Source of the DNA: a virus | Taxonomy: Duplodnaviria; Caudoviricetes | DNA: 58,905 nucleotides | Direction: 5' to 3' (one strand) | Virus record (IMG/VR): IMGVR_UViG_3300045996_001882 | Location: 1-58,905 of that record | Shown: positions 38,716-56,594 of the stretch, in pieces | Numbering within the stretch: the first letter of the stretch is position 1 | How the letters are laid out: every line of letters begins with the position of its first letter | Program-made: the position numbers and the translations under genes | The notes under the pieces: generated by a model | Told to the model about the DNA's origin: nothing | The model's database searches: none | What the model saw: only the letters and a program-made list of their open reading frames with translations

Positions 38716-39267
38716 ATGATCATAGTAGAGGGATGTGATGGGAGCGGGAAAGACACCCTGATCCAATCACTGGCGTCGTACTTCCAGCTGCCCGTGCACG
38801 AGCGAGCCTGTACCAGTGAAGGGGGACCGATCGACGATCTCTACTCGTGGGTTCAGCGCGACGTTCTGCGCTTGCAGGAGCAGCCCCTGTCGATCTACAA
38901 CCGGCATCCTCTCGTGTCCGAGTACATCTACGGTCCGATCGTTCGTCAGTTCCTCCCGCAGGAATTCACCACGACGAACGCGCACCTCCTGATCAGGATG
39001 CTCGCCCAGCGGTCGTTCTTGATCGTGTGCGAGCCCCCCATGCACGAGGTCGCGCACAACCTGTCCGCTCAGCCGCACAACGCGCAGATGCCGGGAGTGT
39101 TCGATCACTTCCCGCAGATCTACAGTGCGTATCAGACGATGCGTCAGTTCTGGCCCGGCCAGGTCATGACGTACAACTACACCTACGGACAAGATCACTT
39201 CAACGGTCTTCTGTCCGCACTTCGCATCCACGTCGCCACTGAGAGGAACTACCGCCATGCCGCGTGA
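38716..39267 (+). CDS. dNMP kinase, thymidylate-kinase-like (183 aa)
   Basis: MIIVEGCDGSGKDT P-loop; YNRHPLVSEYIYG. Confidence 0.85.
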   Translation: MIIVEGCDGSGKDTLIQSLASYFQLPVHERACTSEGGPIDDLYSWVQRDVLRLQEQPLSIYNRHPLVSEYIYGPIVRQFLPQEFTTTNAHLLIRMLAQRSFLIVCEPPMHEVAHNLSAQPHNAQMPGVFDHFPQIYSAYQTMRQFWPGQVMTYNYTYGQDHFNGLLSALRIHVATERNYRHAA

Positions 39268-39862
39268 ATTCGTCAAGTCCGCCGAGATCATCTCTCTCTA
39301 CGACATCCAGGAGGACTCGAACGAGTGGCGCACCCAGGCCTACCCCGACACGTGCGGCCCGATGTACCAGTTCATGGGGGTGGCCGAGGAGGTCGGTGAA
39401 CTGTCGCACGCGCTCCTCAAGTACCTTCAGGGCATCCGCGGTTACGACAAGGACCGCATGCTCGCCGAGGTCGGCGACGCCGGGGGCGACATCGTCATCT
39501 TCCTGTGTGGGCTGTTCTCGTCGCTCGGCCTCGATCTCGAGCAGGAAGTGAACCAGGCGTGGGCTCACGTCAAGAACCGCAACCTGCGACAGGGTTCCGA
39601 CAACGGCTCGACCTCCGGCACCTACACGGCTCCCGCGGATGTCGACGTGCCGGCGCAGAATAACTCCCAGCAGCGCGGTGATCAGCCCAAGCCCGTGTGC
39701 GCCACGAACTGCGGGTGCTCGATGTCGGACGATGTCAAGGTCGTCAGCGTCGATGACACCCCCATCAACCAGCTCAACCCCGAGCAGCGTGAACGTCTCC
39801 TGGGCATGCCGCCCGTCAAGCCGTCCTACGACGCTGCTGCGCACGCGAACAGGATCCCCTGA
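39257..39862 (+). CDS. mazG: MazG-like dNTP pyrophosphohydrolase with C-terminal extension (201 aa)
   Basis: GVAEEVGEL...AEVGD EXXE/EXXD motifs. Confidence 0.85.
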   Translation: MPREFVKSAEIISLYDIQEDSNEWRTQAYPDTCGPMYQFMGVAEEVGELSHALLKYLQGIRGYDKDRMLAEVGDAGGDIVIFLCGLFSSLGLDLEQEVNQAWAHVKNRNLRQGSDNGSTSGTYTAPADVDVPAQNNSQQRGDQPKPVCATNCGCSMSDDVKVVSVDDTPINQLNPEQRERLLGMPPVKPSYDAAAHANRIP

Positions 39863-40752
39863 TGGTTCATCTGATCAAGGCTCCGACCGCGACGCTGCTT
39901 CACGACAAGCTGGCGAATTCGCTCCTGTTCGGTTCTCGAACCGAGCTCGATGACGCCAACTCGGTCGACGTGCAGCTTCACAACGTCGTGGCCGAGGCCG
40001 ACTCGTTCGAGTGGCTCAACAGCGCCGAGAGGTTCTGGACGACTCGTTCGAGGTGGAACACGATGGTGCGGCAGTACATCGATCCCGTGGCTCTTCAGGA
40101 ATGGCTCAACATCATCGAGGGCCGATTCCCGTCGAGCAAGCGCGGCGTCGCCGTTCTGCGCACCAACACGGTGGCCTCACGCAACACCGGCCGGGGTGTG
40201 ACCCGTCGATGGGGTTCGTGCATGTTGAGCCTGTCGTACCGCGTCAAGCCGTGGCCTCAGATCACCCTGCACTCGCGCACGTGCTACCTGGGCTACTTGA
40301 GTGTTCTCGACATGACGGTGGCCCACGTGTGTGCACGTCTCGCCGGCGCACGATCGGGTGTGGACCCAACAAGCATGAGGTTCGTGTGGAATCTCGAGAT
40401 GGCCCAGTTCCACGGCTTCAGGTGCCTCGCGTACCCGGTCGGGGGATCGGACGATTTCTTCGAAGAGTTCACCGCGCACGACGCGAGACGCGAGACTTAC
40501 CCGGGCGTGTACCTCGCACGCAAGGAGTACGACAAGATCGAGGCGCTCGACAACGCGCTGGTGCCGTACGGCGATCAGTCGTTCTCATCCAGCCGTCGGG
40601 TTCGCCGTCGGTTCCACACCCAGGTTCACGGGTACGACTACGCACTTCAGTTCGAGGGGGGTAAGGACCCCAAGAATTCGAGGGCGTACCGACCGATTCC
40701 CCACACGTCGACCGACGATCTGGACTTCACACCGATTGGGATTATCGCATGA
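39862..40752 (+). CDS. Divergent thymidylate-synthase-fold paralogue (296 aa)
   Basis: PSSKRG, WGSCMLSLSYR, LHSRTCYLGYLSVLD, AQFH in the order and spacing of TS motifs (manual alignment). Confidence 0.55.
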   Translation: MVHLIKAPTATLLHDKLANSLLFGSRTELDDANSVDVQLHNVVAEADSFEWLNSAERFWTTRSRWNTMVRQYIDPVALQEWLNIIEGRFPSSKRGVAVLRTNTVASRNTGRGVTRRWGSCMLSLSYRVKPWPQITLHSRTCYLGYLSVLDMTVAHVCARLAGARSGVDPTSMRFVWNLEMAQFHGFRCLAYPVGGSDDFFEEFTAHDARRETYPGVYLARKEYDKIEALDNALVPYGDQSFSSSRRVRRRFHTQVHGYDYALQFEGGKDPKNSRAYRPIPHTSTDDLDFTPIGIIA

Positions 40753-41561
40753 GAACCACCGGCCGCACTGTGTTCACCGATGTGCATTCGACTGAGTTCA
40801 GTCGTCTGTTCTCGATCCTTCGTCACAACCTCAACGAATCGTCGGTGTACGACCGCGGTCGGTGGCAATCCCAAGACGTCTCGACGCGCCCTGAGATGAA
40901 CACACGCGAACTCTGGAACGTGCACATCGAGTACGACATGCCGACGACGAACAAGGCGCTTGTGGACGCTGTGAGGCCTAACCGGCCGTGGGCCGACGAC
41001 CACTTCCTCGAGCGCGTGTCTGGTCAACCGCTCAACCCGCCGCCGTCGTCATCTTGGTGGCCTTTCAACCAACGGGACAATGCTCAGCACAAGTCGGCCG
41101 ACAAGTTCTCCCACACGTACCCCGAGCGATTCTGGCCCAAGTGGGCCAACGGCAAGGACGTCGAACGAAACCCCAAGAAGCACCGAGGTATTCGATTTGG
41201 TTATGGTGATCTCGCCGACGTCGTCAAGCAACTGCGAGCTGACCCTTTCACCCGCCAAGCATACCTCCCTGTCTGGTTCCCCGAGGACACCGGCGCGGTG
41301 CACGGCGAGCGAGTCCCGTGCTCGTTGGGTTACCATTTTGTCCGCAATGGCAGTAGGCTTGATTGCGTTTATAGCCTTCGCTCTTGTGACTTTTTCCGTC
41401 ATTTCCGTGATGATGTATATCTCGCTTGCCGGCTCACCGATTGGATCCAAGATCAGCTCCTGGATGTGGATGGTTATCCCTGGCTAGGCAAGCTCGTGCT
41501 CAACATCTCGAACCTGCACTGTTTCCGTGGAGACCAATGGCTGCTTGACAAGGAGGACTGA
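40749..41561 (+). CDS. Thymidylate-synthase-fold enzyme, probable dCMP C5-modifying (methyl/hydroxymethyl) transferase (270 aa)
   Basis: HFLERV, TYPERF, PFTRQAYL, VPCSLGYHF, LRSCDFFRHFRDD, NLHCF; Asp at E. coli ThyA Asn177 position. Confidence 0.8.
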   Translation: MRTTGRTVFTDVHSTEFSRLFSILRHNLNESSVYDRGRWQSQDVSTRPEMNTRELWNVHIEYDMPTTNKALVDAVRPNRPWADDHFLERVSGQPLNPPPSSSWWPFNQRDNAQHKSADKFSHTYPERFWPKWANGKDVERNPKKHRGIRFGYGDLADVVKQLRADPFTRQAYLPVWFPEDTGAVHGERVPCSLGYHFVRNGSRLDCVYSLRSCDFFRHFRDDVYLACRLTDWIQDQLLDVDGYPWLGKLVLNISNLHCFRGDQWLLDKED

Positions 41562-45747: not shown

Positions 45748-45995
45748 GTAATGACCCGCACTACGTCCTGCGTTACACGATCGAGCGTGTGGATCACATC
45801 AAGCCCGAGGCCCGTAGTTCGTACCGAACGGATTCGTTGCCCGAGCCGAAGGAGACGCGTGTCGTGACGGAACTCGCCTCCCACACGCTGAAGCGCGGTG
45901 ACCTGACTAGTCTGATCGCGACGGCGATCAAGCACCTCGATCTGGTGGAGGACGACAACATCCACGACCCGAAGCCGAAGGGTAATGTTCGCTGA
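45744..45995 (+). CDS. Hypothetical protein (83 aa)
   Basis: Coupled to both neighbours; GGAGG RBS. Confidence 0.6.
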   Translation: MSNDPHYVLRYTIERVDHIKPEARSSYRTDSLPEPKETRVVTELASHTLKRGDLTSLIATAIKHLDLVEDDNIHDPKPKGNVR

Positions 45996-46786
45996 TGAAG
46001 ATCACTCTGATCTCGAGCAGTACCCTGGTGCCGGCGCGGGGCGCGATCGAAGGTCCACCGTGGGCGATCAACAAGTGGCTCCCCGAGGACGGCCGTCGAG
46101 GCGACGACGAGTGGAGTCCCGACTTCGCTGACGACGCTGACATGATCACCGAGTTCGCGGGCCGTGCGTGTTACGAGTCGTGGGACAGGCCGAACCCCAA
46201 CACGGCTCACAACGCGGACTACGTGCGCAACATCCTGGGGCAGCAGCACGAGTCTGTGCTGGAACACTCATCCCTGACGTTCTACGTCGAGGAGGTGTCG
46301 CGTTCGATGACGCTCGAGTTGGTGCGTCACAGGCACCTGAGTTACTCGCAGCGGTCTCAACGTTACGTCAACGAGTCGTTGTCCGATTTCGTGATTCCGG
46401 GCGATCTCAGCGACCGTCAGCGCGATCCGTACATCGCCCGGCTGATCGAGGAACTCAAGGATCATCACAAGTCGGCCGCGAACCTCTACGGTGAGATCGT
46501 CGAGGCCCTGATGGACACCTGCGTAGACGAGCGGGGCGAGCTGTACCCCAAGCTGGGAATCAAGCAGGCGCGAGGTGCTGCTCGGGCGGCGCTGCTCGAG
46601 TCGACCCACACCAACATCGTCGTCACGGGCAACTTGCGCGCCTGGCGTGACATGCTCAAGAAGCGGTGGCACGTCGCTGCGGAGAGGGAAATCCGCGAGT
46701 TTGCCGGCTTGATCCTCGCCGACATACGATCAATCGCACCTAACAGCGTTCAGGACATTCCGTCCGAACCCTACGGAACGGAGTGA
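45995..46786 (+). CDS. thyX: Flavin-dependent thymidylate synthase ThyX (263 aa)
   Basis: EFAGRACYES, HESVLEH, RHRHLSYSQRSQRY, NLRAWR, AEREIR. Confidence 0.95.
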   Translation: MKITLISSSTLVPARGAIEGPPWAINKWLPEDGRRGDDEWSPDFADDADMITEFAGRACYESWDRPNPNTAHNADYVRNILGQQHESVLEHSSLTFYVEEVSRSMTLELVRHRHLSYSQRSQRYVNESLSDFVIPGDLSDRQRDPYIARLIEELKDHHKSAANLYGEIVEALMDTCVDERGELYPKLGIKQARGAARAALLESTHTNIVVTGNLRAWRDMLKKRWHVAAEREIREFAGLILADIRSIAPNSVQDIPSEPYGTE

Positions 46787-49432: not shown

Positions 49433-50053
49433 TCAGGCGAAGGAGCGCGACGAGCGGCAGCGACGTCGAGCAGCAGGCGTTGCATCGTGCCCGCAGGTCG
49501 CGTGTGACGACCCGGAGCGCTTCGCCGGCACAACTACCGGGGCGACGTTGTTTGGGGCGTCAGCGACGATCTCAGCGGTGGAATTATCAGCCTCGGTCAG
49601 CTGATTCGTTGCTGTAACGTTACCTTGGGCGAGGTAGATCGGCTTGTCGACCCCCTCAACCCGGATTCCCACCCGCGGACCCCAGTGGCTGTCACCAACC
49701 CACATCACGATGCCCGAAGTGCCGATCTTGACCTTGCGGCCCTTAGTGACGGTGACATGCTGGTCGACAACGATTTGGCCCGAGGCCAGCTCGTGACGGA
49801 TCTTGTCCTGGTACTCGACGACGGCGTCAGGGTCGCATTCGTGCACGTGCCAGCAAGCGGTGCGGCGGGCGCCGGACGCGGCCCGGTACGTCACGTCGAG
49901 CAGCTGGTTTTTCCGGTTGTACCGGGCGACTTCCCGCCCACACGCGTAGCATCGGCCCAAGTCGTGCACGTCCTCAGCCTGGTGGTTCCGCCCGTAGCAC
50001 GTGATGTGCAGCGTATCAGGGTTGCGCACGAAGCGCGGGCGCGTAGTCGTCAT
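49433..50053 (-). CDS. Protein with Cys/His region, KOW/SH3-like segment and C-terminal HCHC module (206 aa)
   Basis: VTVTKGRKVKIGTSGIVMW...RVGI; SHATCGHDATPAARRRCR. Confidence 0.75.
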   Translation of the reverse strand: MTTTRPRFVRNPDTLHITCYGRNHQAEDVHDLGRCYACGREVARYNRKNQLLDVTYRAASGARRTACWHVHECDPDAVVEYQDKIRHELASGQIVVDQHVTVTKGRKVKIGTSGIVMWVGDSHWGPRVGIRVEGVDKPIYLAQGNVTATNQLTEADNSTAEIVADAPNNVAPVVVPAKRSGSSHATCGHDATPAARRRCRSSRSFA

Positions 50054-50663: not shown

Positions 50664-50993
50664 TCAGGCGGACGCGGCACGTGCCTTGCGGCAGGCAGCA
50701 CGCGCCTTGGGCGTCACCTCGTGGTCACACGCAGCGTGTGACCTGCGCGTCTTGGCAACGGTGTTCGTGTGGCCGGTGCGCAGTTGGGGCTTCGCGTTCA
50801 GGCAGACGAGGCAACCTTCGCGCTCCTCAGCGTCCTCGGGAAGGTTGTCGTGGTTGCCATCCTCGTGGCAGTTTTCCCAGCCCCAGAAATCGTAGCACTT
50901 GTTGCACACGTCGCGGTAGTGGCGGCCCGGGGTGCGGTTTGCGGCGGTGATGCGCGTACCACATTCGGTGCAGGTGATCGTCGTTTTCGTCAT
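50664..50993 (-). CDS. Cys-rich protein with C-terminal HCHC module (109 aa)
   Basis: Three CxxC pairs; SHAACDHEVTPKARAACR. Confidence 0.75.
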   Translation of the reverse strand: MTKTTITCTECGTRITAANRTPGRHYRDVCNKCYDFWGWENCHEDGNHDNLPEDAEEREGCLVCLNAKPQLRTGHTNTVAKTRRSHAACDHEVTPKARAACRKARAASA

Positions 50994-51112
50994 GCCAGAA
51001 CTTTACCACACCTCAGCGCAGACGTGCAAGGGGTATGGTGATTTGCTTGTGCAAACTGTCCTCTCACCGACAAACCCGCACGTGGCGGGCAGTCGGGGGA
51101 GGGGGTCAGTGA

Positions 51113-51451
51113 TCAGTCAGCGAGCGTGTCGCTGTCCTCGAGCTTCAGGATCGCGTCAACGATCAGGACCTCGAGCGAGTCGTCAGAGAGCTCGGTCAGC
51201 GTCTCGCGGATTTCCAACATCGCACGATCGATCAGGTCGGCGTTCTCGACGTTGGGGGCGACGTTGTTGCGCTCCTCGATCGCGCAGAGGATCCCGTACG
51301 CGGTGACATTGTGGGGATCGGTCGGGGAGAACATCCCGTACGTGTTGAGCTCGCGCGGGGACACCTCGTCGTCGAGCCAGGTCACGAGCGTGCGGATCGC
51401 GGTGTCGACGTCATCGGCGGTGTGCGGGCGGGTGTTCGCGTTGTTCGTCAT
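51113..51451 (-). CDS. Acidic hypothetical protein (112 aa)
   Basis: Own promoter, downstream hairpin. Confidence 0.7.
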   Translation of the reverse strand: MTNNANTRPHTADDVDTAIRTLVTWLDDEVSPRELNTYGMFSPTDPHNVTAYGILCAIEERNNVAPNVENADLIDRAMLEIRETLTELSDDSLEVLIVDAILKLEDSDTLAD

Positions 51452-51500
51452 GTGAAGACCTTACCACACGCCTGCGTCGTCGCGCAACAGGTCATCACAG

Positions 51501-51749: not shown

Positions 51750-52187
51750 TCAGATTTCGATGGTGTGGATGATGTCGTAGGGAAAGACCATCTCGTTGTC
51801 CTCGTGGTCGAGGCCCTCGATCGCGTCGTCGCCGACGCGGGTGAGACGAATGAGGGTGTCAACGGGAACGTCACCGAGACCCGGAACTGCATGGGTAACC
51901 GTGATGAACTTCTCGACTTCCTGGTCAAGCGCACGTGACAGCAGGATCAACGTGTTCGTGAAGCGGTCGCGCGAGCTCTGAGTACGCCGTGAGCGCCTCG
52001 AAGTCGTTCGCCGCGGTGACGTCTCGGTCGGCGTACGATCGGCGCTCACGGACGAACTCAGCGCCTGACCGAACGGCGTGACGAGCAAGTTCGTCGTGTC
52101 CGCGGCGGGGGTGATTCCCGCACGCCGGCACGCGGCACGACCCGCCGGAGTAGCGGGGTGGTCACACAGCTTATGAGACATGGCCAT
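51750..52187 (-). CDS. Hypothetical protein with N-terminal HCHC module (145 aa)
   Basis: MAMSHKLCDHPATPAGRAACR; GGAAGG RBS. Confidence 0.7.
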   Translation of the reverse strand: MAMSHKLCDHPATPAGRAACRRAGITPAADTTNLLVTPFGQALSSSVSADRTPTETSPRRTTSRRSRRTQSSRDRFTNTLILLSRALDQEVEKFITVTHAVPGLGDVPVDTLIRLTRVGDDAIEGLDHEDNEMVFPYDIIHTIEI

Positions 52188-52269
52188 GATCAGAACGCCT
52201 TCCAGGGAGAACACGCCAATGCGCGGCCCGCGATTGAGCAAGCAGCGCATTGACGTGCGGCGGGAATGG

Positions 52270-52690: not shown

Positions 52691-53002
52691 TCAGAGGGAC
52701 GTGGGGTCGACGTTCTTGACGCAGTTCTTGCACGTCACACACTCGGCGAGCGCGTCGACACGCTCCGCGGAGTCGAGGATGTTCTTCTTCGTGCAGGCGA
52801 ACGTATCACCGTTGGCGAAGTGAACGACCTTCGACCCCTTCGCGATGACCGCCGGGTACGTGGGGGGCAGAACGACCTTCGTCGCCTTCGGCGTCACGCC
52901 GGCACGGGCCCGGCGGCAGGCGGCACGAGCGACCTTCGTGCGGGGGTGAGTGCAAGCGGTGTGGGCGGTGGTGCGGGGCGCGGTGTTCGTGTTCGTCGTC
53001 AT
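52691..53002 (-). CDS. Protein with N-terminal HCHC module and C-terminal H/C zinc finger (103 aa)
   Basis: AHTACTHPRTKVARAACR; VVH...C...VTCKNC. Confidence 0.75.
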   Translation of the reverse strand: MTTNTNTAPRTTAHTACTHPRTKVARAACRRARAGVTPKATKVVLPPTYPAVIAKGSKVVHFANGDTFACTKKNILDSAERVDALAECVTCKNCVKNVDPTSL

Positions 53003-54390: not shown

Positions 54391-54588
54391 TCACATGTTC
54401 GGCAGGTTCGAGATCCCGTCAGACGCGTTGACGAGCATGTTCCCGATCATGCGCATGTCATCGCACGACCCGGACATCACCTCACGCCCGTTGACGACGA
54501 GGTGCACGATGTTCGTGTCCTCGTTGCGATACACGGCGATCACGTTCGGGTGCGTCGGGGAGGGGAGCGGGTTCGCGTTGTTCGTCAT
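54391..54588 (-). CDS. Hypothetical protein (65 aa)
   Basis: Leaderless promoter; MTNNAN start shared with 51113-51451. Confidence 0.65.
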   Translation of the reverse strand: MTNNANPLPSPTHPNVIAVYRNEDTNIVHLVVNGREVMSGSCDDMRMIGNMLVNASDGISNLPNM

Positions 54589-54644
54589 GTGAGAACTGTA
54601 CCACACCCGTCAGAGGCGACACAACAGGTGTGGCACAAGATCTT

Positions 54645-55006: not shown

Positions 55007-55315
55007 ATGACGAACAACACGAACAACATCGCCTCGATCATCACCTGCACCGGGCGACGCGGCGCGAAGGCCTGCTCCCACGCTGCGAAGGCGGGTCGCA
55101 CGATTCACGCGATCCCCGCACATCGTGACGACTTCTACCTCGTCCTCCCCACGTATCACTTCACGTCCGCCGAGGAGGCGCTGACGTACGTGTCCAACGC
55201 GTTCGACAACGCGCCCCTCGTCACGTCCGACGCCGATCGCGAGTCGTTCGAGGCTCAGGAGATCGCGTTCAAGATCCCGAGGACGTACGTGCACCCCTCT
55301 CGTCGCAACGTCTGA
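55007..55315 (+). CDS. Hypothetical protein (102 aa)
   Basis: TTGACA-N17-TAGTGT-N6-ATG. Confidence 0.7.
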   Translation: MTNNTNNIASIITCTGRRGAKACSHAAKAGRTIHAIPAHRDDFYLVLPTYHFTSAEEALTYVSNAFDNAPLVTSDADRESFEAQEIAFKIPRTYVHPSRRNV

Positions 55316-55710
55316 TCATTCCCCACACGCCCGACGCTCGGGAGGCGCTGATCGCGTCTCTCGGGCGTTTTCGTGAGCGTCGTGCGTGATCGTGCGTTCG
55401 TACGTGTTGCGGACGAGCACGAGCCTGCTAGCAGGCACGAAACGTCTCTCGTCATTCTCGTCAATCACCATGTAATACCCACGCCCGGCATTGTAGAGAA
55501 TCCTCACCAATCCGACAGTGCCACACGTCGCGTACATTGATTCAGACATTCCCATTCCTCTCTGCACAAAGCCCACACCAGGCGAAATACGATTGGTCGC
55601 AGTTGACGATTCTGCATTCGTATTTCTGGGGGAGCTTGGTGTGGGCTTCATGCTCGGATCATCGTTGCCTGGGCCATCGCTTTGTTCGCAACCCAAGAAA
55701 CTACCCGAAG

Positions 55711-55788
55711 TGAGGGGGGCGGGGCTTGAACCCGCCTTCGGTGAAGATCATTCACCTACTCCCATGCGCGACCCGGAATCGCCCCCTC
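55711..55788 (-). tRNA. Non-canonical tRNA-like cloverleaf, anticodon GAT (Ile-like), no encoded CCA
   Basis: GAGGGGG/CCCCCTC acceptor; ATTCC/GGAGT arm; GGTGA-ATGATCT-TCACC; GCGGG-TTCAAGC-CCCGC; discriminator A. Confidence 0.6.
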
Positions 55789-55796
55789 GGCTTGTG

Positions 55797-56507
55797 TCAG
55801 TCGTCGAGATCCTCGACGTCGTCCTCGTCCTCGTCCTCGAACTCGTCCTCGACGGGCGCCGCGGGCTTGGCGGCCTTCTTGCCGGCGGGCTTCGCGGCCT
55901 TCTTGGCCTTGAGCTCGGCGAGCTTCGCCTTCTTCTCCTTCTCGAGGGTGCCCGAACGCACGTGCTCGACCAGGGCGACGACCACCGGGTCGTTCTCACC
56001 CTCGAAGGAGTACCTGCCGCGCTCCTCGCCGATCTCGCGGTCGAGCTGACCGGACCGCGCCATCTTGCGCAGGAGGGCCCGCAGGTCGTACGGCTTGTAG
56101 ACACGCCCGGTCTGGGTGGCGACGTGGTCCGCGAGCCACGAGGAACCGAACTGGATCGCCGGCTGCTTGGGCTTCACGGCCTTCTTCGCCGGCTTCGCGG
56201 GCTCCTCCGCCGCGGCAGCAGCCTTGCGACGACGCTTCGCCGCAGGCTTGACCTCCTCGGGCTCCTCCTCCTCGGCGAGCTCCTCGTCGTCCTCGTCGTC
56301 GTCCGAGTCCTGCTCTTCGTCCTCGACGGGCTCGGGTTCGGGCGCGGCGGCCTTGCGACGACGCTTGGTCGGTGCCGGCGCGGGGGTCTCCTCGTCCTCG
56401 GACTCGTCGTCCAGCTCGATGTCGTCCAGCTCGTCGGGGTCGACAGTGGCGGGCACAGCGGGCTTCACAGGAGTGGTGGCGCGGCGACGTCGAGTGGTGG
56501 GCGGCAT
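55797..56507 (-). CDS. Histone-like low-complexity protein with central HTH-like domain (236 aa)
   Basis: Alternating D/E and K/A/P tracts; WLADHV...YDLRALLRKM...GRYSF; own TTGACA promoter and GAGG RBS. Confidence 0.75.
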   Translation of the reverse strand: MPPTTRRRRATTPVKPAVPATVDPDELDDIELDDESEDEETPAPAPTKRRRKAAAPEPEPVEDEEQDSDDDEDDEELAEEEEPEEVKPAAKRRRKAAAAAEEPAKPAKKAVKPKQPAIQFGSSWLADHVATQTGRVYKPYDLRALLRKMARSGQLDREIGEERGRYSFEGENDPVVVALVEHVRSGTLEKEKKAKLAELKAKKAAKPAGKKAAKPAAPVEDEFEDEDEDDVEDLDD

Positions 56508-56594
56508 TGCGGTACCTCTTTCGAACTCGGAGAGTGTGCAGTTCAGTTGAAGCGAACAAGAGCCAACATAATGTCTATGCCGGCGGATGTCAAA

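What the first reader, a model, noticed from the sequence alone, without database searches (positions are those of the whole stretch)
55711..55788. tRNA-shaped RNA with a good acceptor/T half but non-canonical D arm and anticodon loop
Seen: 78-nt cloverleaf starting 8 nt after the stop of the histone-like gene, with a 7-bp acceptor stem, T arm with TTCAAGC loop, and 5-bp anticodon stem with GAT centred. Deviations: C at position 8, a 5-bp D stem with 12-nt loop, A32, C37 and no CCA. Established: U8 and purine 37 are near-universal in tRNAs. Inference: a tRNA mimic (decoy for anticodon nucleases or toxins, nuclease-resistant Ile tRNA, or RNase P/Z processing signal that defines the mRNA 3' end), likely missed or scored pseudo by standard tools.
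Basis: partly seen in the sequence, partly recalled or inferred. Interest (0 to 1): 0.7.

Follow-up and report, generated by a model that had tools for sequence, protein, structure and literature searches.

The report
Odd tRNA-shaped element after phage gene
A soil phage carries a single 78-base stretch that folds like a transfer RNA in its acceptor and T-arm half but not in its core or anticodon loop, so it is probably a tRNA-derived processing signal or a relic rather than a working tRNA, and nothing like it was found in any relative.

Summary
On the minus strand, 55788->55711, 8 nt after the TGA of a 236-aa gene, lies a 78-nt sequence. It has a perfect 7-bp acceptor stem, a perfect 5-bp T stem with a TTCAAGC loop, a perfect 5-bp anticodon-like stem around GAT, C8, an oversized D arm, A32 and C37, and no CCA.

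It is not chance. A canonical acceptor+T-arm descriptor hits once in the window against 0.013-0.02 expected.

It is not a normal tRNA. ARAGORN finds nothing, Rfam finds nothing at gathering, and the best tRNA-clan score is 17.9 bits.

It is a singleton:
- No homologue turned up in the viral, metagenome or genome collections.
- Homologues of the upstream gene in the nearest relative and two isolates are followed by plain hairpin terminators.
- 25 of 25 IMG/VR loci holding that gene have no tRNA nearby.
- The genome has no integrase, so this is not an attP.

My best reading (0.4) is a tRNA-derived module in the 3' UTR, read by tRNA-end-processing enzymes. The main rival (0.3) is a decaying tRNA gene. 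There is no covariation or RNA evidence. Interest is modest.

The parts
55711..55788 (-). 78-nt tRNA-shaped element. Acceptor 5' strand 55788-55782. C8, G9 at 55781-55780. D-like arm 55779-55758. Anticodon-like arm 55756-55740, with GAT at 55749-55747. 4-nt variable region 55739-55736. T arm 55735-55719. Acceptor 3' strand 55718-55712. Discriminator A at 55711.
   Evidence: Sequence. Fold. Weak tRNA-clan match covering 55712-55788, 17.9 bits, confident only in the acceptor and T arm. Single descriptor hit against 0.013-0.02 expected. Unique in the window.
55797..56507 (-). Upstream 236-aa ORF with acidic and Lys/Ala/Pro-rich tails around a conserved central domain (residues about 118-187). The element starts 8 nt after its stop codon.
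   Evidence: ORF list. GC3 0.90. phrog_16498, unknown function, E 7e-18. No Pfam, NCBIfam or PDB match of note. The central domain is found in 66 actinophage records at under 60% identity.
56565..56593 (-). Promoter-like site TTGACA-17-TATGTT upstream of the 236-aa ORF. It would place the element on that gene's transcript.
   Evidence: Consensus scan: 1 site found against 0.2 expected in shuffles. A consensus match only.
55654..55708 (-). Middle hairpin between the tRNA-like element and the long hairpin.
   Evidence: Fold of the 256-nt intergenic stretch: -104.7 kcal/mol, z -3.40, 0 of 200 shuffles fold as well.
55558..55653 (-). Long interrupted hairpin (arms 55653-55634 and 55583-55564, inner arms 55626-55615 and 55595-55584) followed by TTTGTG. 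It is the likely terminator of the 236-aa gene's transcript.
   Evidence: Inverted repeats I1 and I3. Fold -46.6 kcal/mol, z -6.15, 0 of 200 shuffles. It did not meet the simple terminator scan's T-run rule.
55316..55555 (-). Possible 79-aa ORF downstream on the same strand, preceded by GAGAGGA. It is uncertain whether it is a real gene.
   Evidence: ORF list. Weak phrog_33326 match, E 3e-4. Weak DUF7393 match, E 0.02. No tblastn match in 50,697 phage records.
55007..55388 (+). Convergent 102-aa ORF (55007-55315) and its hairpin + TTTT terminator-like site (55326-55388). Together they bound the intergenic region on the other side.
   Evidence: ORF list. GC3 0.87. Inverted repeats I2 and I8. 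Sequence.

Best explanation
The element is a genuine, lineage-specific tRNA-shaped module, either tRNA-derived or tRNA-mimicking. It sits in the 3' untranslated region of the 236-aa gene, between the stop codon and a strong terminator-like hairpin.

It keeps the half of a tRNA that tRNA end-processing enzymes read: a 7-bp acceptor stem stacked on a canonical T arm. It also keeps an anticodon-like hairpin. It lacks the tRNA core (C8, a 5-bp D stem with a 12-nt loop). It also lacks a decoding-type anticodon loop, because A32 and U38 can pair and position 37 is C.

Most likely it does not decode. I propose that it is co-transcribed with the gene and cut at its 5' side by host RNase P, 8 nt after the stop codon. 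It would then be trimmed at its 3' side by tRNA 3'-end enzymes. This would set the 3' end and lifetime of the upstream mRNA and release a small stable tRNA-like RNA.

Shown: shape, non-randomness, failure in tRNA detectors, position, and absence from relatives. Inferred: transcription, cleavage, and any effect on the mRNA.
For: 1. Canonical acceptor and T-arm geometry occurs once in the window, here, against 0.013-0.02 expected. With an anticodon arm added, 0 of 300 random sequences match.
2. All 17 pairs of the acceptor, T and anticodon-like stems are Watson-Crick, and the T loop TTCAAGC fits TTCRANN. The deviations all fall in the D region and the anticodon loop. Infernal aligns only the acceptor and T arm with confidence. 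This pattern fits selection on the minihelix half rather than on decoding. That is my inference from one sequence, and it has modest weight.
3. The element is intergenic, on the same strand as the upstream gene and 8 nt after its stop. A promoter-like site lies upstream of the gene and a very stable hairpin + TTTGTG lies downstream. So it would be transcribed as part of that mRNA's 3' UTR.
4. That RNase P and the CCA-adding enzyme need little more than an acceptor/T-arm minihelix is established knowledge, recalled and not tested here.
5. A second aberrant tRNA-like element exists in a distant relative, G002. It is 54 nt, has no anticodon arm, scores 32 bits on RF00005, and starts 10 nt after a stop codon. 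This is only a weak parallel: the sequences are unrelated and the upstream genes are not homologous.
Against: - No homologue of the element was found anywhere. There is therefore no covariation and no sign of purifying selection.
- No transcript evidence exists.
- The nearest relative G001 and two isolates (Huwbert, Shrew) carry the homologous gene followed by ordinary hairpin terminators and no tRNA-like element. In addition, 25 of 25 IMG/VR loci with the gene have no ARAGORN tRNA within 1.5 kb. So the module is dispensable for that gene family.
- An RNase P cut would leave the upstream mRNA without a protective 3' hairpin, so a stabilising role is not obvious.
- The fold energy is not exceptional (z -2.39), and the MFE does not form the proposed D arm.
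- The 'perfect stems, deviant loops' argument is weakened by ascertainment.
Confidence: 0.4

Rival explanations
1. It is a decaying tRNA gene. A tRNA, possibly an Ile isoacceptor, was acquired by this lineage as phages often do. It has since lost its D-arm geometry and anticodon-loop identity and now has no function.
For: tRNA genes occur sporadically in this phage group. Among 10 further relatives' records, 2 hold tRNAs above the Rfam cut-off, and G002 holds a tRNA with its anticodon arm deleted. The element is absent from all relatives examined. Its tRNA-clan score of 17.9 bits lies below the tRNA family's gathering score of 29 bits. ARAGORN reports it only when thresholds are dropped to 85%, along with 17 other candidates in the window. 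The covariance model of the element gives its best foreign hit to a real phage tRNA-Ile(tat) in Streptomyces phage KimJongPhill, at 23.5 bits and rough E 0.017, with a nearly identical T arm.
Against: All 34 stem bases of three arms and all 7 T-loop bases are intact, while at least 4-5 deviations sit in the other 37 bases. If decay were uniform, about 0.02-0.05 of such cases would look like this. That figure is my rough estimate, not a computed test, and it is subject to ascertainment bias. A compact lytic phage genome is expected to purge dead DNA, which is general knowledge.
Confidence: 0.3
2. It is a trans-acting tRNA decoy. After processing, the RNA soaks up a host tRNA-directed defence enzyme, either an anticodon nuclease or an enzyme that modifies the acceptor end, and so protects host tRNAs.
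For: The shape keeps the acceptor/T half and an anticodon-like hairpin but could not compete in translation. Phage tRNAs with altered anticodon loops have been proposed to evade VapC, PrrC and colicin-type nucleases in mycobacteriophages (PMC10264068, abstract read). Virally encoded tRNAs that neutralise PARIS and retron effectors are reported (PMC11464382 and PMC11555353, search listing and abstract starts only).
Against: There is no evidence of expression, no conservation and no known partner. The published cases are functional replacement tRNAs, not decoys. A single-copy 3'-UTR element would have to accumulate to high levels. The anticodon loop may close to 5 nt through an A32-U38 pair, which makes it a poor mimic of a real anticodon loop.
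Confidence: 0.1
3. It has no tRNA relationship. It is a GC-rich multi-branch structure that belongs to the transcription terminator or 3'-UTR stability region, and the tRNA resemblance is coincidental.
For: In relatives, the same position after the homologous gene holds hairpin terminators. The whole 256-nt intergenic stretch is unusually structured, with z -3.40. Stability of the 78 nt alone is modest and similar on both strands. The identical T-stem and acceptor sequence recurs in unrelated tRNAs of Verrucomicrobiota, archaea and others, so GC-rich stems of this kind arise repeatedly. Across a scan of very many windows, a few chance full matches are expected. That is my rough estimate, not a computation.
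Against: The canonical descriptor is expected 0.013-0.02 times per window, and it hits only here. The T loop matches TTCRANN exactly. The T stem abuts the acceptor strand with tRNA spacing. The anticodon-like arm has a 7-nt loop with T33 and sits a 4-nt variable region from the T stem. No T run follows the element.
Confidence: 0.1
4. It is a functional but non-canonical tRNA-Ile(GAU) that is charged and decodes AUC/AUU, perhaps one resistant to an anticodon nuclease.
For: The anticodon-like loop is 7 nt with T33 and GAT centred. The discriminator is A. The acceptor and T arm are perfect.
Against: C8, an oversized D arm (5 bp and a 12-nt loop) and C37 in place of a purine. ARAGORN finds 0 genes. 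RF00005 finds nothing at E<=10. The best clan score is 17.9 bits against gathering scores of 29 (tRNA) and 47 (tRNA-Sec). That a modified purine 37 and A38 matter for tRNA-Ile recognition is recalled, not tested.
Confidence: 0.05

Closest known systems
Ordinary phage-encoded tRNA genes (for example tRNA-Ile(tat) of Streptomyces phage KimJongPhill)
   Same: 7-bp acceptor, canonical T arm (GCGGG/TTCRAGC/CCCGC is nearly identical), discriminator A, an Ile-type anticodon triplet, and an intergenic position on the coding strand downstream of a gene.
   Different: C8, a 5-bp D stem with a 12-nt loop, A32, and C37. It is not found by ARAGORN or by Rfam at gathering. It scores only 23.5 bits between the two with a model built from the element itself.
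tRNA-like 3'-end processing modules (mascRNA of MALAT1; plant mitochondrial 't-elements'; RNase P cuts inside bacterial operon mRNAs).
   Same: A tRNA-shaped structure with a good acceptor/T half and a degenerate rest, sitting just downstream of a longer RNA's functional part. RNase P cleavage there would define that RNA's 3' end.
   Different: Those are eukaryotic, organellar or E. coli cases with experimental cleavage data. Here nothing is shown beyond sequence. No upstream 3'-end-protecting structure is evident, and I know of no phage example.
tRNA gene fragments and pseudogenes in prokaryotic genomes (PMC9897764, search listing and abstract start only)
   Same: It scores below tRNA thresholds, has partial tRNA features, and is not conserved.
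   Different: It is a full-length cloverleaf outline with both acceptor strands present, not a 3' or 5' fragment. No integrase is present and no matching host tRNA was found, so it is not an attachment-site remnant.
tmRNA tRNA-like domain and bacterial Y RNA (YrlA) tRNA-like module (PMC4201824, search listing and abstract start only)
   Same: Non-decoding RNAs that keep an acceptor-like stem and a T arm.
   Different: ARAGORN's tmRNA search finds none. No tmRNA or Y RNA/YrlA family appeared in any of the three Rfam scans of the window, even at E<=10 on the locus. Pair 3-70 is G-C, not G.U. There is no long Ro-binding stem.
Candidate structured RNAs in IMG/VR phages, including 'tRNA or tRNA-like' candidates (PMC10690425, passages read)
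   Same: Computationally found tRNA-like structures in uncultivated phage genomes, of unknown function.
   Different: Those candidates were defined by covariation across several homologues, whereas this element has none. Whether this contig appears in that paper's supplementary tables could not be checked, because supplements are closed.

Membership tests
Canonical tRNA (Rfam RF00005 / ARAGORN) | 7-bp acceptor stem with an unpaired discriminator | tested here: met
   GAGGGGG/CCCCCTC, 7 Watson-Crick pairs, discriminator A.
Canonical tRNA (Rfam RF00005 / ARAGORN) | 5-bp T stem abutting the acceptor, with a 7-nt T loop TTCRANN | tested here: met
   GCGGG/TTCAAGC/CCCGC. The only descriptor hit in the window.
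Canonical tRNA (Rfam RF00005 / ARAGORN) | D arm with a 3-4-bp stem and a 7-11-nt loop, preceded by U8 | tested here: not met
   C8. The best D-like pairing is 5 bp (one T.G) with a 12-nt loop. The MFE forms a different hairpin. Infernal leaves this region unaligned.
Canonical tRNA (Rfam RF00005 / ARAGORN) | Anticodon loop of 7 nt with U33 and purine 37 | tested here: not met
   T33 is present but position 37 is C. A32 and T38 can pair, giving a 5-nt loop in the MFE.
Canonical tRNA (Rfam RF00005 / ARAGORN) | Score above the detector thresholds | tested here: not met
   ARAGORN at default finds 0 genes. It appears only at the 85% threshold, among 18 candidates. Rfam at gathering finds 0. RF00005 on the record finds 0 at E<=10. 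The best clan match is 17.9 bits. tRNAscan-SE was not available.
Phage attP carrying a host tRNA 3' part | An integrase gene in the phage, and sequence identity to a host tRNA 3' half | tested here: not met
   No tyrosine or serine recombinase domain in the complete record. The exact 22-mer of the T arm plus acceptor is absent from 185,579 species genomes. tRNAs that share the stems differ in the T loop and everywhere else.
tmRNA / tRNA-like domain | Detected by the tmRNA models; G3.U70 alanine identity pair | tested here: not met
   ARAGORN tmRNA search finds none. No tmRNA family match in Rfam. Pair 3-70 is G-C.
Intrinsic terminator | A GC-rich hairpin immediately followed by a T run | tested here: not met
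   No terminator-like site at the element in the scan. The sequence after the acceptor is ACTTCGGGTAG. The long hairpin 60 nt further on, followed by TTTGTG, is the better terminator candidate.
RNase P-processed tRNA-like 3'-end module (works-like, not a curated family) | An acceptor/T-arm minihelix present at the 3' side of a longer transcript | tested here: met
   Geometry is met. The position is 8 nt after the stop codon, upstream of the terminator-like hairpin and downstream of a promoter-like site. Transcription itself is not shown.
RNase P-processed tRNA-like 3'-end module (works-like, not a curated family) | Cleavage by RNase P, then 3' trimming and CCA addition in vivo | not testable with these tools
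   No RNA run holds the locus. The contigs laid do not cover 55696-55783.

The most novel reading that the evidence does not exclude
Some actinobacteria-type phages carry stripped-down tRNA mimics that keep only the acceptor/T-arm half. Here the mimic has a dummy anticodon hairpin. In the distant relative G002 it has no anticodon arm at all. In both phages it is placed right after a stop codon. Host RNase P and the CCA-adding enzyme would release these as small RNAs. The RNAs would then act in trans, for example as sponges for host enzymes that attack tRNA acceptor ends or anticodon loops during infection. This would be a non-decoding, RNA-based counter-defence, distinct from the known replacement tRNAs.
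Probability: 0.1. Interest if true: 0.7.

Novelty: new member of a known kind. Interest (0 to 1): 0.35.

Why it matters
If the element is functional, it would be a bacterial-virus example of a non-decoding tRNA mimic. It would be used either to punctuate an mRNA or to interfere with tRNA-directed host enzymes. It would also show that standard tRNA finders hide such elements.

As it stands, it is a single sequence with no relatives and no RNA evidence. Its main practical value is as a well-defined test case. The 78-nt RNA has a precise predicted RNase P site and is cheap to test in vitro.

Tried and rejected
attP or host tRNA fragment: rejected.
- The complete record has no integrase.
- The exact 25-mer is absent from viral contigs and the exact 22-mer from genome contigs.

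Descent from a specific host tRNA: not supported.
- A degenerate T-arm+acceptor pattern found 57 metagenome loci.
- ARAGORN places the match in tRNA-Arg(tct) in 39 of them and in tRNA-His(gtg) in 7.
- In 4 it falls in another call: Tyr, Leu, Met, and one of unknown type.
- In the remaining 7 ARAGORN calls no tRNA.
- I aligned 10 of the 50 tRNA-bearing loci and all 7 without a call. They share only the stems required by the pattern.
- The same pattern found 36 genome loci: 27 Verrucomicrobiota, 4 Actinomycetota, 3 archaea and 2 Enterobacteriaceae-labelled MAGs.
- Of these I examined 6 with ARAGORN and aligned the 4 actinobacterial ones. There is no similarity outside the T arm.

Finding relatives for covariation: failed.
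- The upstream protein, whole or as its central domain, found no close relative in viral contigs or metagenome contigs.
- A profile found 25 distant loci, none with a tRNA or a match to the element's model.
- The nearest phage by capsid (71% identity) has the gene but not the element.

Sequence similarity to phage DNA: blastn of the element gave only chance-level hits, E 3-10.

Expression: no RNA holder is listed. There are 5 DNA soil-metagenome runs from 2 studies. The contigs laid are identical fragments that leave 55696-55783 uncovered, so they give no variants and no ends.

G002's anticodon-less element: no relatives by exact pattern or by the downstream protein.

tRNA-related enzymes: I scanned 40 ORFs with PHROGs. 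None is a CCA-adding enzyme, RNA ligase or similar. About 50 small ORFs were not scanned.

Literature: searches found no described phage 3'-UTR tRNA mimic of this kind. That is a statement about those five searches only.

The script machine was lost, so no codon-usage analysis or refined statistics could be run after that.

Full report
WHAT THE WINDOW IS. The window is a complete 58,905-bp IMG/VR virus record. Its ends repeat over 127 bp. It encodes a tape measure protein, major head protein, portal, large terminase, DNA polymerase, helicase, primase and exonuclease. It also encodes nucleotide-metabolism genes. It has no tyrosine or serine recombinase. Its capsid protein is about 50% identical to those of Arthrobacter, Microbacterium, Mycobacterium and Micrococcus phages. 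The DNA is held at low depth in soil metagenome runs. It is therefore a probably lytic siphovirus of an actinobacterial-type host.

THE OBSERVATION. The element lies on the minus strand from 55788 to 55711. The 236-aa ORF 56507..55797 ends in TGA, and 8 nt later the element starts.
- a 7-bp Watson-Crick acceptor stem;
- C8;
- a possible 5-bp D stem (one T.G) with a 12-nt loop;
- a 5-bp anticodon-like stem with the loop ATGATCT (A32, T33, GAT, C37, T38);
- a 4-nt variable region;
- a 5-bp T stem with the loop TTCAAGC, abutting the acceptor 3' strand;
- discriminator A and no CCA.

RNAfold gives -36.3 kcal/mol. It keeps the acceptor, T and anticodon-like helices. It closes A32-U38 and replaces the D arm with another small hairpin. 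Stability is modest (z -2.39, 6 of 200 shuffles as good), and the other strand folds about as well.

IS IT MORE THAN CHANCE? I wrote a descriptor from general tRNA rules only: a 7-bp acceptor, an adjacent 5-bp T stem, a TTCRANN loop, and at most one G.U per stem. It hits once on both strands of the window, at this element.
- Window-sized first-order Markov sequences give 0.013 hits each (300 sequences). With an anticodon arm added they give 0 in 300.
- With a wider length range (45-95 nt) the expectation is 0.02.
- The T-arm core is unique in the window even with 3 mismatches allowed.
- One caveat applies. In a scan of very many windows a few chance full matches are expected (my rough estimate). 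The intergenic, same-strand, post-stop position is what makes chance unattractive here.

IS IT A tRNA?
- ARAGORN at default finds no tRNA or tmRNA in the window.
- ARAGORN reports the element only when thresholds drop to 85%. It then uses a different register (anticodon aat) and reports 17 other candidates as well. At 80% there are 104 candidates.
- Rfam finds nothing at gathering thresholds.
- Rfam finds no tRNA-clan match in a 701-nt scan at E<=10.
- RF00005 finds nothing in the record at E<=10, while its 14 control genomes all ring.
- Only when 111 nt are searched alone does a tRNA-clan match appear. It is tRNA-Sec at 17.9 bits (gathering 47), E 0.16, with confident alignment only in the acceptor and T arm.

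So it fails membership in the tRNA family on three counts: the D arm and U8, purine 37, and score. It meets the acceptor and T-arm criteria.

SURROUNDINGS. A promoter-like site (TTGACA-17-TATGTT, 56593-56565) precedes the 236-aa gene. After the element come a 55-nt hairpin and then a long interrupted hairpin (55653-55564). The long hairpin folds at -46.6 kcal/mol, z -6.15, and is followed by TTTGTG. The whole 256-nt stretch is unusually structured (z -3.40, 0 of 200 shuffles). Beyond it lies a doubtful 79-aa ORF on the same strand. A convergent 102-aa gene with its own hairpin + TTTT follows. The element therefore sits in the 3' UTR of the 236-aa gene, upstream of the likely terminator.

That gene is 'histone-like' only by composition. 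It matches phrog_16498 (unknown function) and no Pfam, NCBIfam or PDB entry of note.

RELATIVES.
- The exact T-arm+acceptor 25-mer is absent from IMG/VR. The 22-mer is absent from 185,579 species genomes.
- The upstream protein has no close relatives in IMG/VR or JGI metagenomes.
- The nearest phage by capsid is G001 (71% identity). It has a 43%-identical homologue of the gene. That homologue is followed by two strong hairpins, the second with UUUUCG, and by no tRNA-like element.
- In Microbacterium phage Huwbert and Curtobacterium phage Shrew the homologue is likewise followed by a GC-rich hairpin and a T/G-rich tail.
- A profile of five homologues found 25 IMG/VR loci. ARAGORN finds no tRNA in any of the 25.
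- A covariance model of the element (R1) was searched over 37 sources (266,955 bases). It finds only three things: itself; a real tRNA-Ile(tat) of Streptomyces phage KimJongPhill (23.5 bits, rough E 0.017, nearly the same T arm); and an unconvincing 17.3-bit hit in G001.

The element is thus a lineage-specific gain at a place where relatives have a plain terminator. No covariation test is possible.

ORIGIN. A degenerate pattern for the T arm and acceptor 3' strand matched 57 metagenome loci. It falls mostly in bona fide tRNA-Arg(tct) (39 loci) and tRNA-His (7 loci). It matched 36 genome loci: 27 Verrucomicrobiota, 4 Actinomycetota, 3 archaea and 2 Enterobacteriaceae-labelled MAGs. Alignments show identity only in the stems that the pattern demands. 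These GC-rich stems recur in unrelated tRNAs and say nothing about descent or host.

With no integrase, an attP reading is excluded.

A PARALLEL. The distant relative G002 (capsid 45% identical) has one tRNA-like element of 54 nt. It has U8, a normal D arm and a normal T arm but no anticodon arm. It scores 32 bits on RF00005 and starts 10 nt after the stop of an unrelated Lys-rich ORF. It too has no relatives. Among 10 further relatives' records only 2 hold tRNAs. This shows that tRNA genes come and go in this group and that aberrant forms exist. It supports neither function nor decay decisively.

HOW IT MOST LIKELY WORKS. The intact part is exactly the acceptor/T-arm minihelix. That RNase P, 3'-end trimming enzymes and the CCA-adding enzyme recognise this minihelix is established knowledge, recalled here. 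The parts needed for the L-shaped core and for decoding are off-consensus.

I therefore favour (0.4) a non-decoding, tRNA-derived module that is co-transcribed with the 236-aa gene and excised by tRNA-processing enzymes. This would set the mRNA's 3' end 8 nt after the stop and yield a small tRNA-like RNA. The shape and the position are shown. Transcription, cleavage and consequence are inferred.

The main rival (0.3) is a decaying tRNA gene. Against it, all 41 bases of three stems and the T loop are intact while 4-5 deviations fall in the other 37 bases. I estimate this is about 0.02-0.05 likely under uniform decay. That estimate is weakened because the element was picked for its perfect stems.

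The other readings are:
- a trans-acting decoy (0.1);
- a coincidental structure in a terminator region (0.1);
- a working odd tRNA-Ile (0.05).

COMPARISON AND NOVELTY. It works most like the tRNA-like 3'-end modules known from MALAT1/mascRNA and plant mitochondrial t-elements (recalled). In appearance it is most like a phage tRNA pseudogene. Large-scale surveys already list uncharacterised 'tRNA or tRNA-like' candidates in IMG/VR phages (PMC10690425, passages read). Their supplements could not be opened. Phage tRNAs with altered anticodon loops have been linked to evasion of anticodon nucleases (PMC10264068, abstract).

I rate the element a new member of a known, loosely defined kind. Interest is modest (0.35), because it is a singleton without conservation or RNA evidence. 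It does have a sharp, cheap experimental test.

Noticed in passing
L017:1501-1554 (+), = G002:C1:31471-31524: A 54-nt tRNA-like element in a distantly related phage. It has the acceptor, U8, a D arm and a T arm but no anticodon arm at all. It scores 32 bits on RF00005 (above the cut-off of 29) and folds at z -4.06. It starts 10 nt after the stop of a Lys-rich ORF and ends 28 nt before the next gene. No relatives were found.
   Followed up: partly
window 50968-51034, 51426-51492, 54563-54629: A 67-nt repeat in three copies (69-100% identity). Each copy spans the start of a minus-strand small gene. Read on the minus strand, each holds a TGTGGTAAGGT-like motif a few bases before an ATG that opens with Met-Thr-Asn. 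These look like repeated promoters for leaderless early genes with related N-termini. That reading is mine and is untested.
   Followed up: no
window 38716-41561 and 45995-46786: Two thymidylate-synthase-like genes (phrog_160 and phrog_85), a thymidylate-kinase-like gene, a MazG-like gene and a strongly conserved unknown (phrog_13667, E 2e-92) cluster with the replication genes. This might point to a modified pyrimidine in the phage DNA.
   Followed up: no
window 49436-50053, 50667-50993, 51753-52250, 52694-53002 (all minus): Four ORFs in the right arm match the same unknown family, phrog_18656. They form a small paralogous family of probable early genes.
   Followed up: no
window 55797-56507 (-); L084, L085, L086, L014: The 'histone-like' gene has a conserved central domain of about 70 aa (FG...LR.LLRKM...R..F.G..DP). 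It is found in 66 actinophage records and 25 IMG/VR loci, flanked by variable acidic and Lys/Ala-rich tails. In Huwbert and Shrew it is a lone gene, oriented against its neighbours, between the tail and replication modules. No known family matches it.
   Followed up: partly
window 55558-55653 (-): A very stable interrupted hairpin of about 90 nt (-46.6 kcal/mol, z -6.15) followed by TTTGTG. It is the probable terminator of the 236-aa gene, or a regulatory structure ahead of the doubtful 79-aa ORF.
   Followed up: partly
L124:4015-4038, L142:1300-1323, L126:6365-6388, L159:6286-6309: In four Actinomycetota genomes (Arachnia propionica x2, Krasilnikovia, one uncultured) the same T-arm+acceptor sequence occurs where ARAGORN calls no tRNA. 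They are unrelated to the element upstream of the T arm. What they are was not worked out.
   Followed up: no
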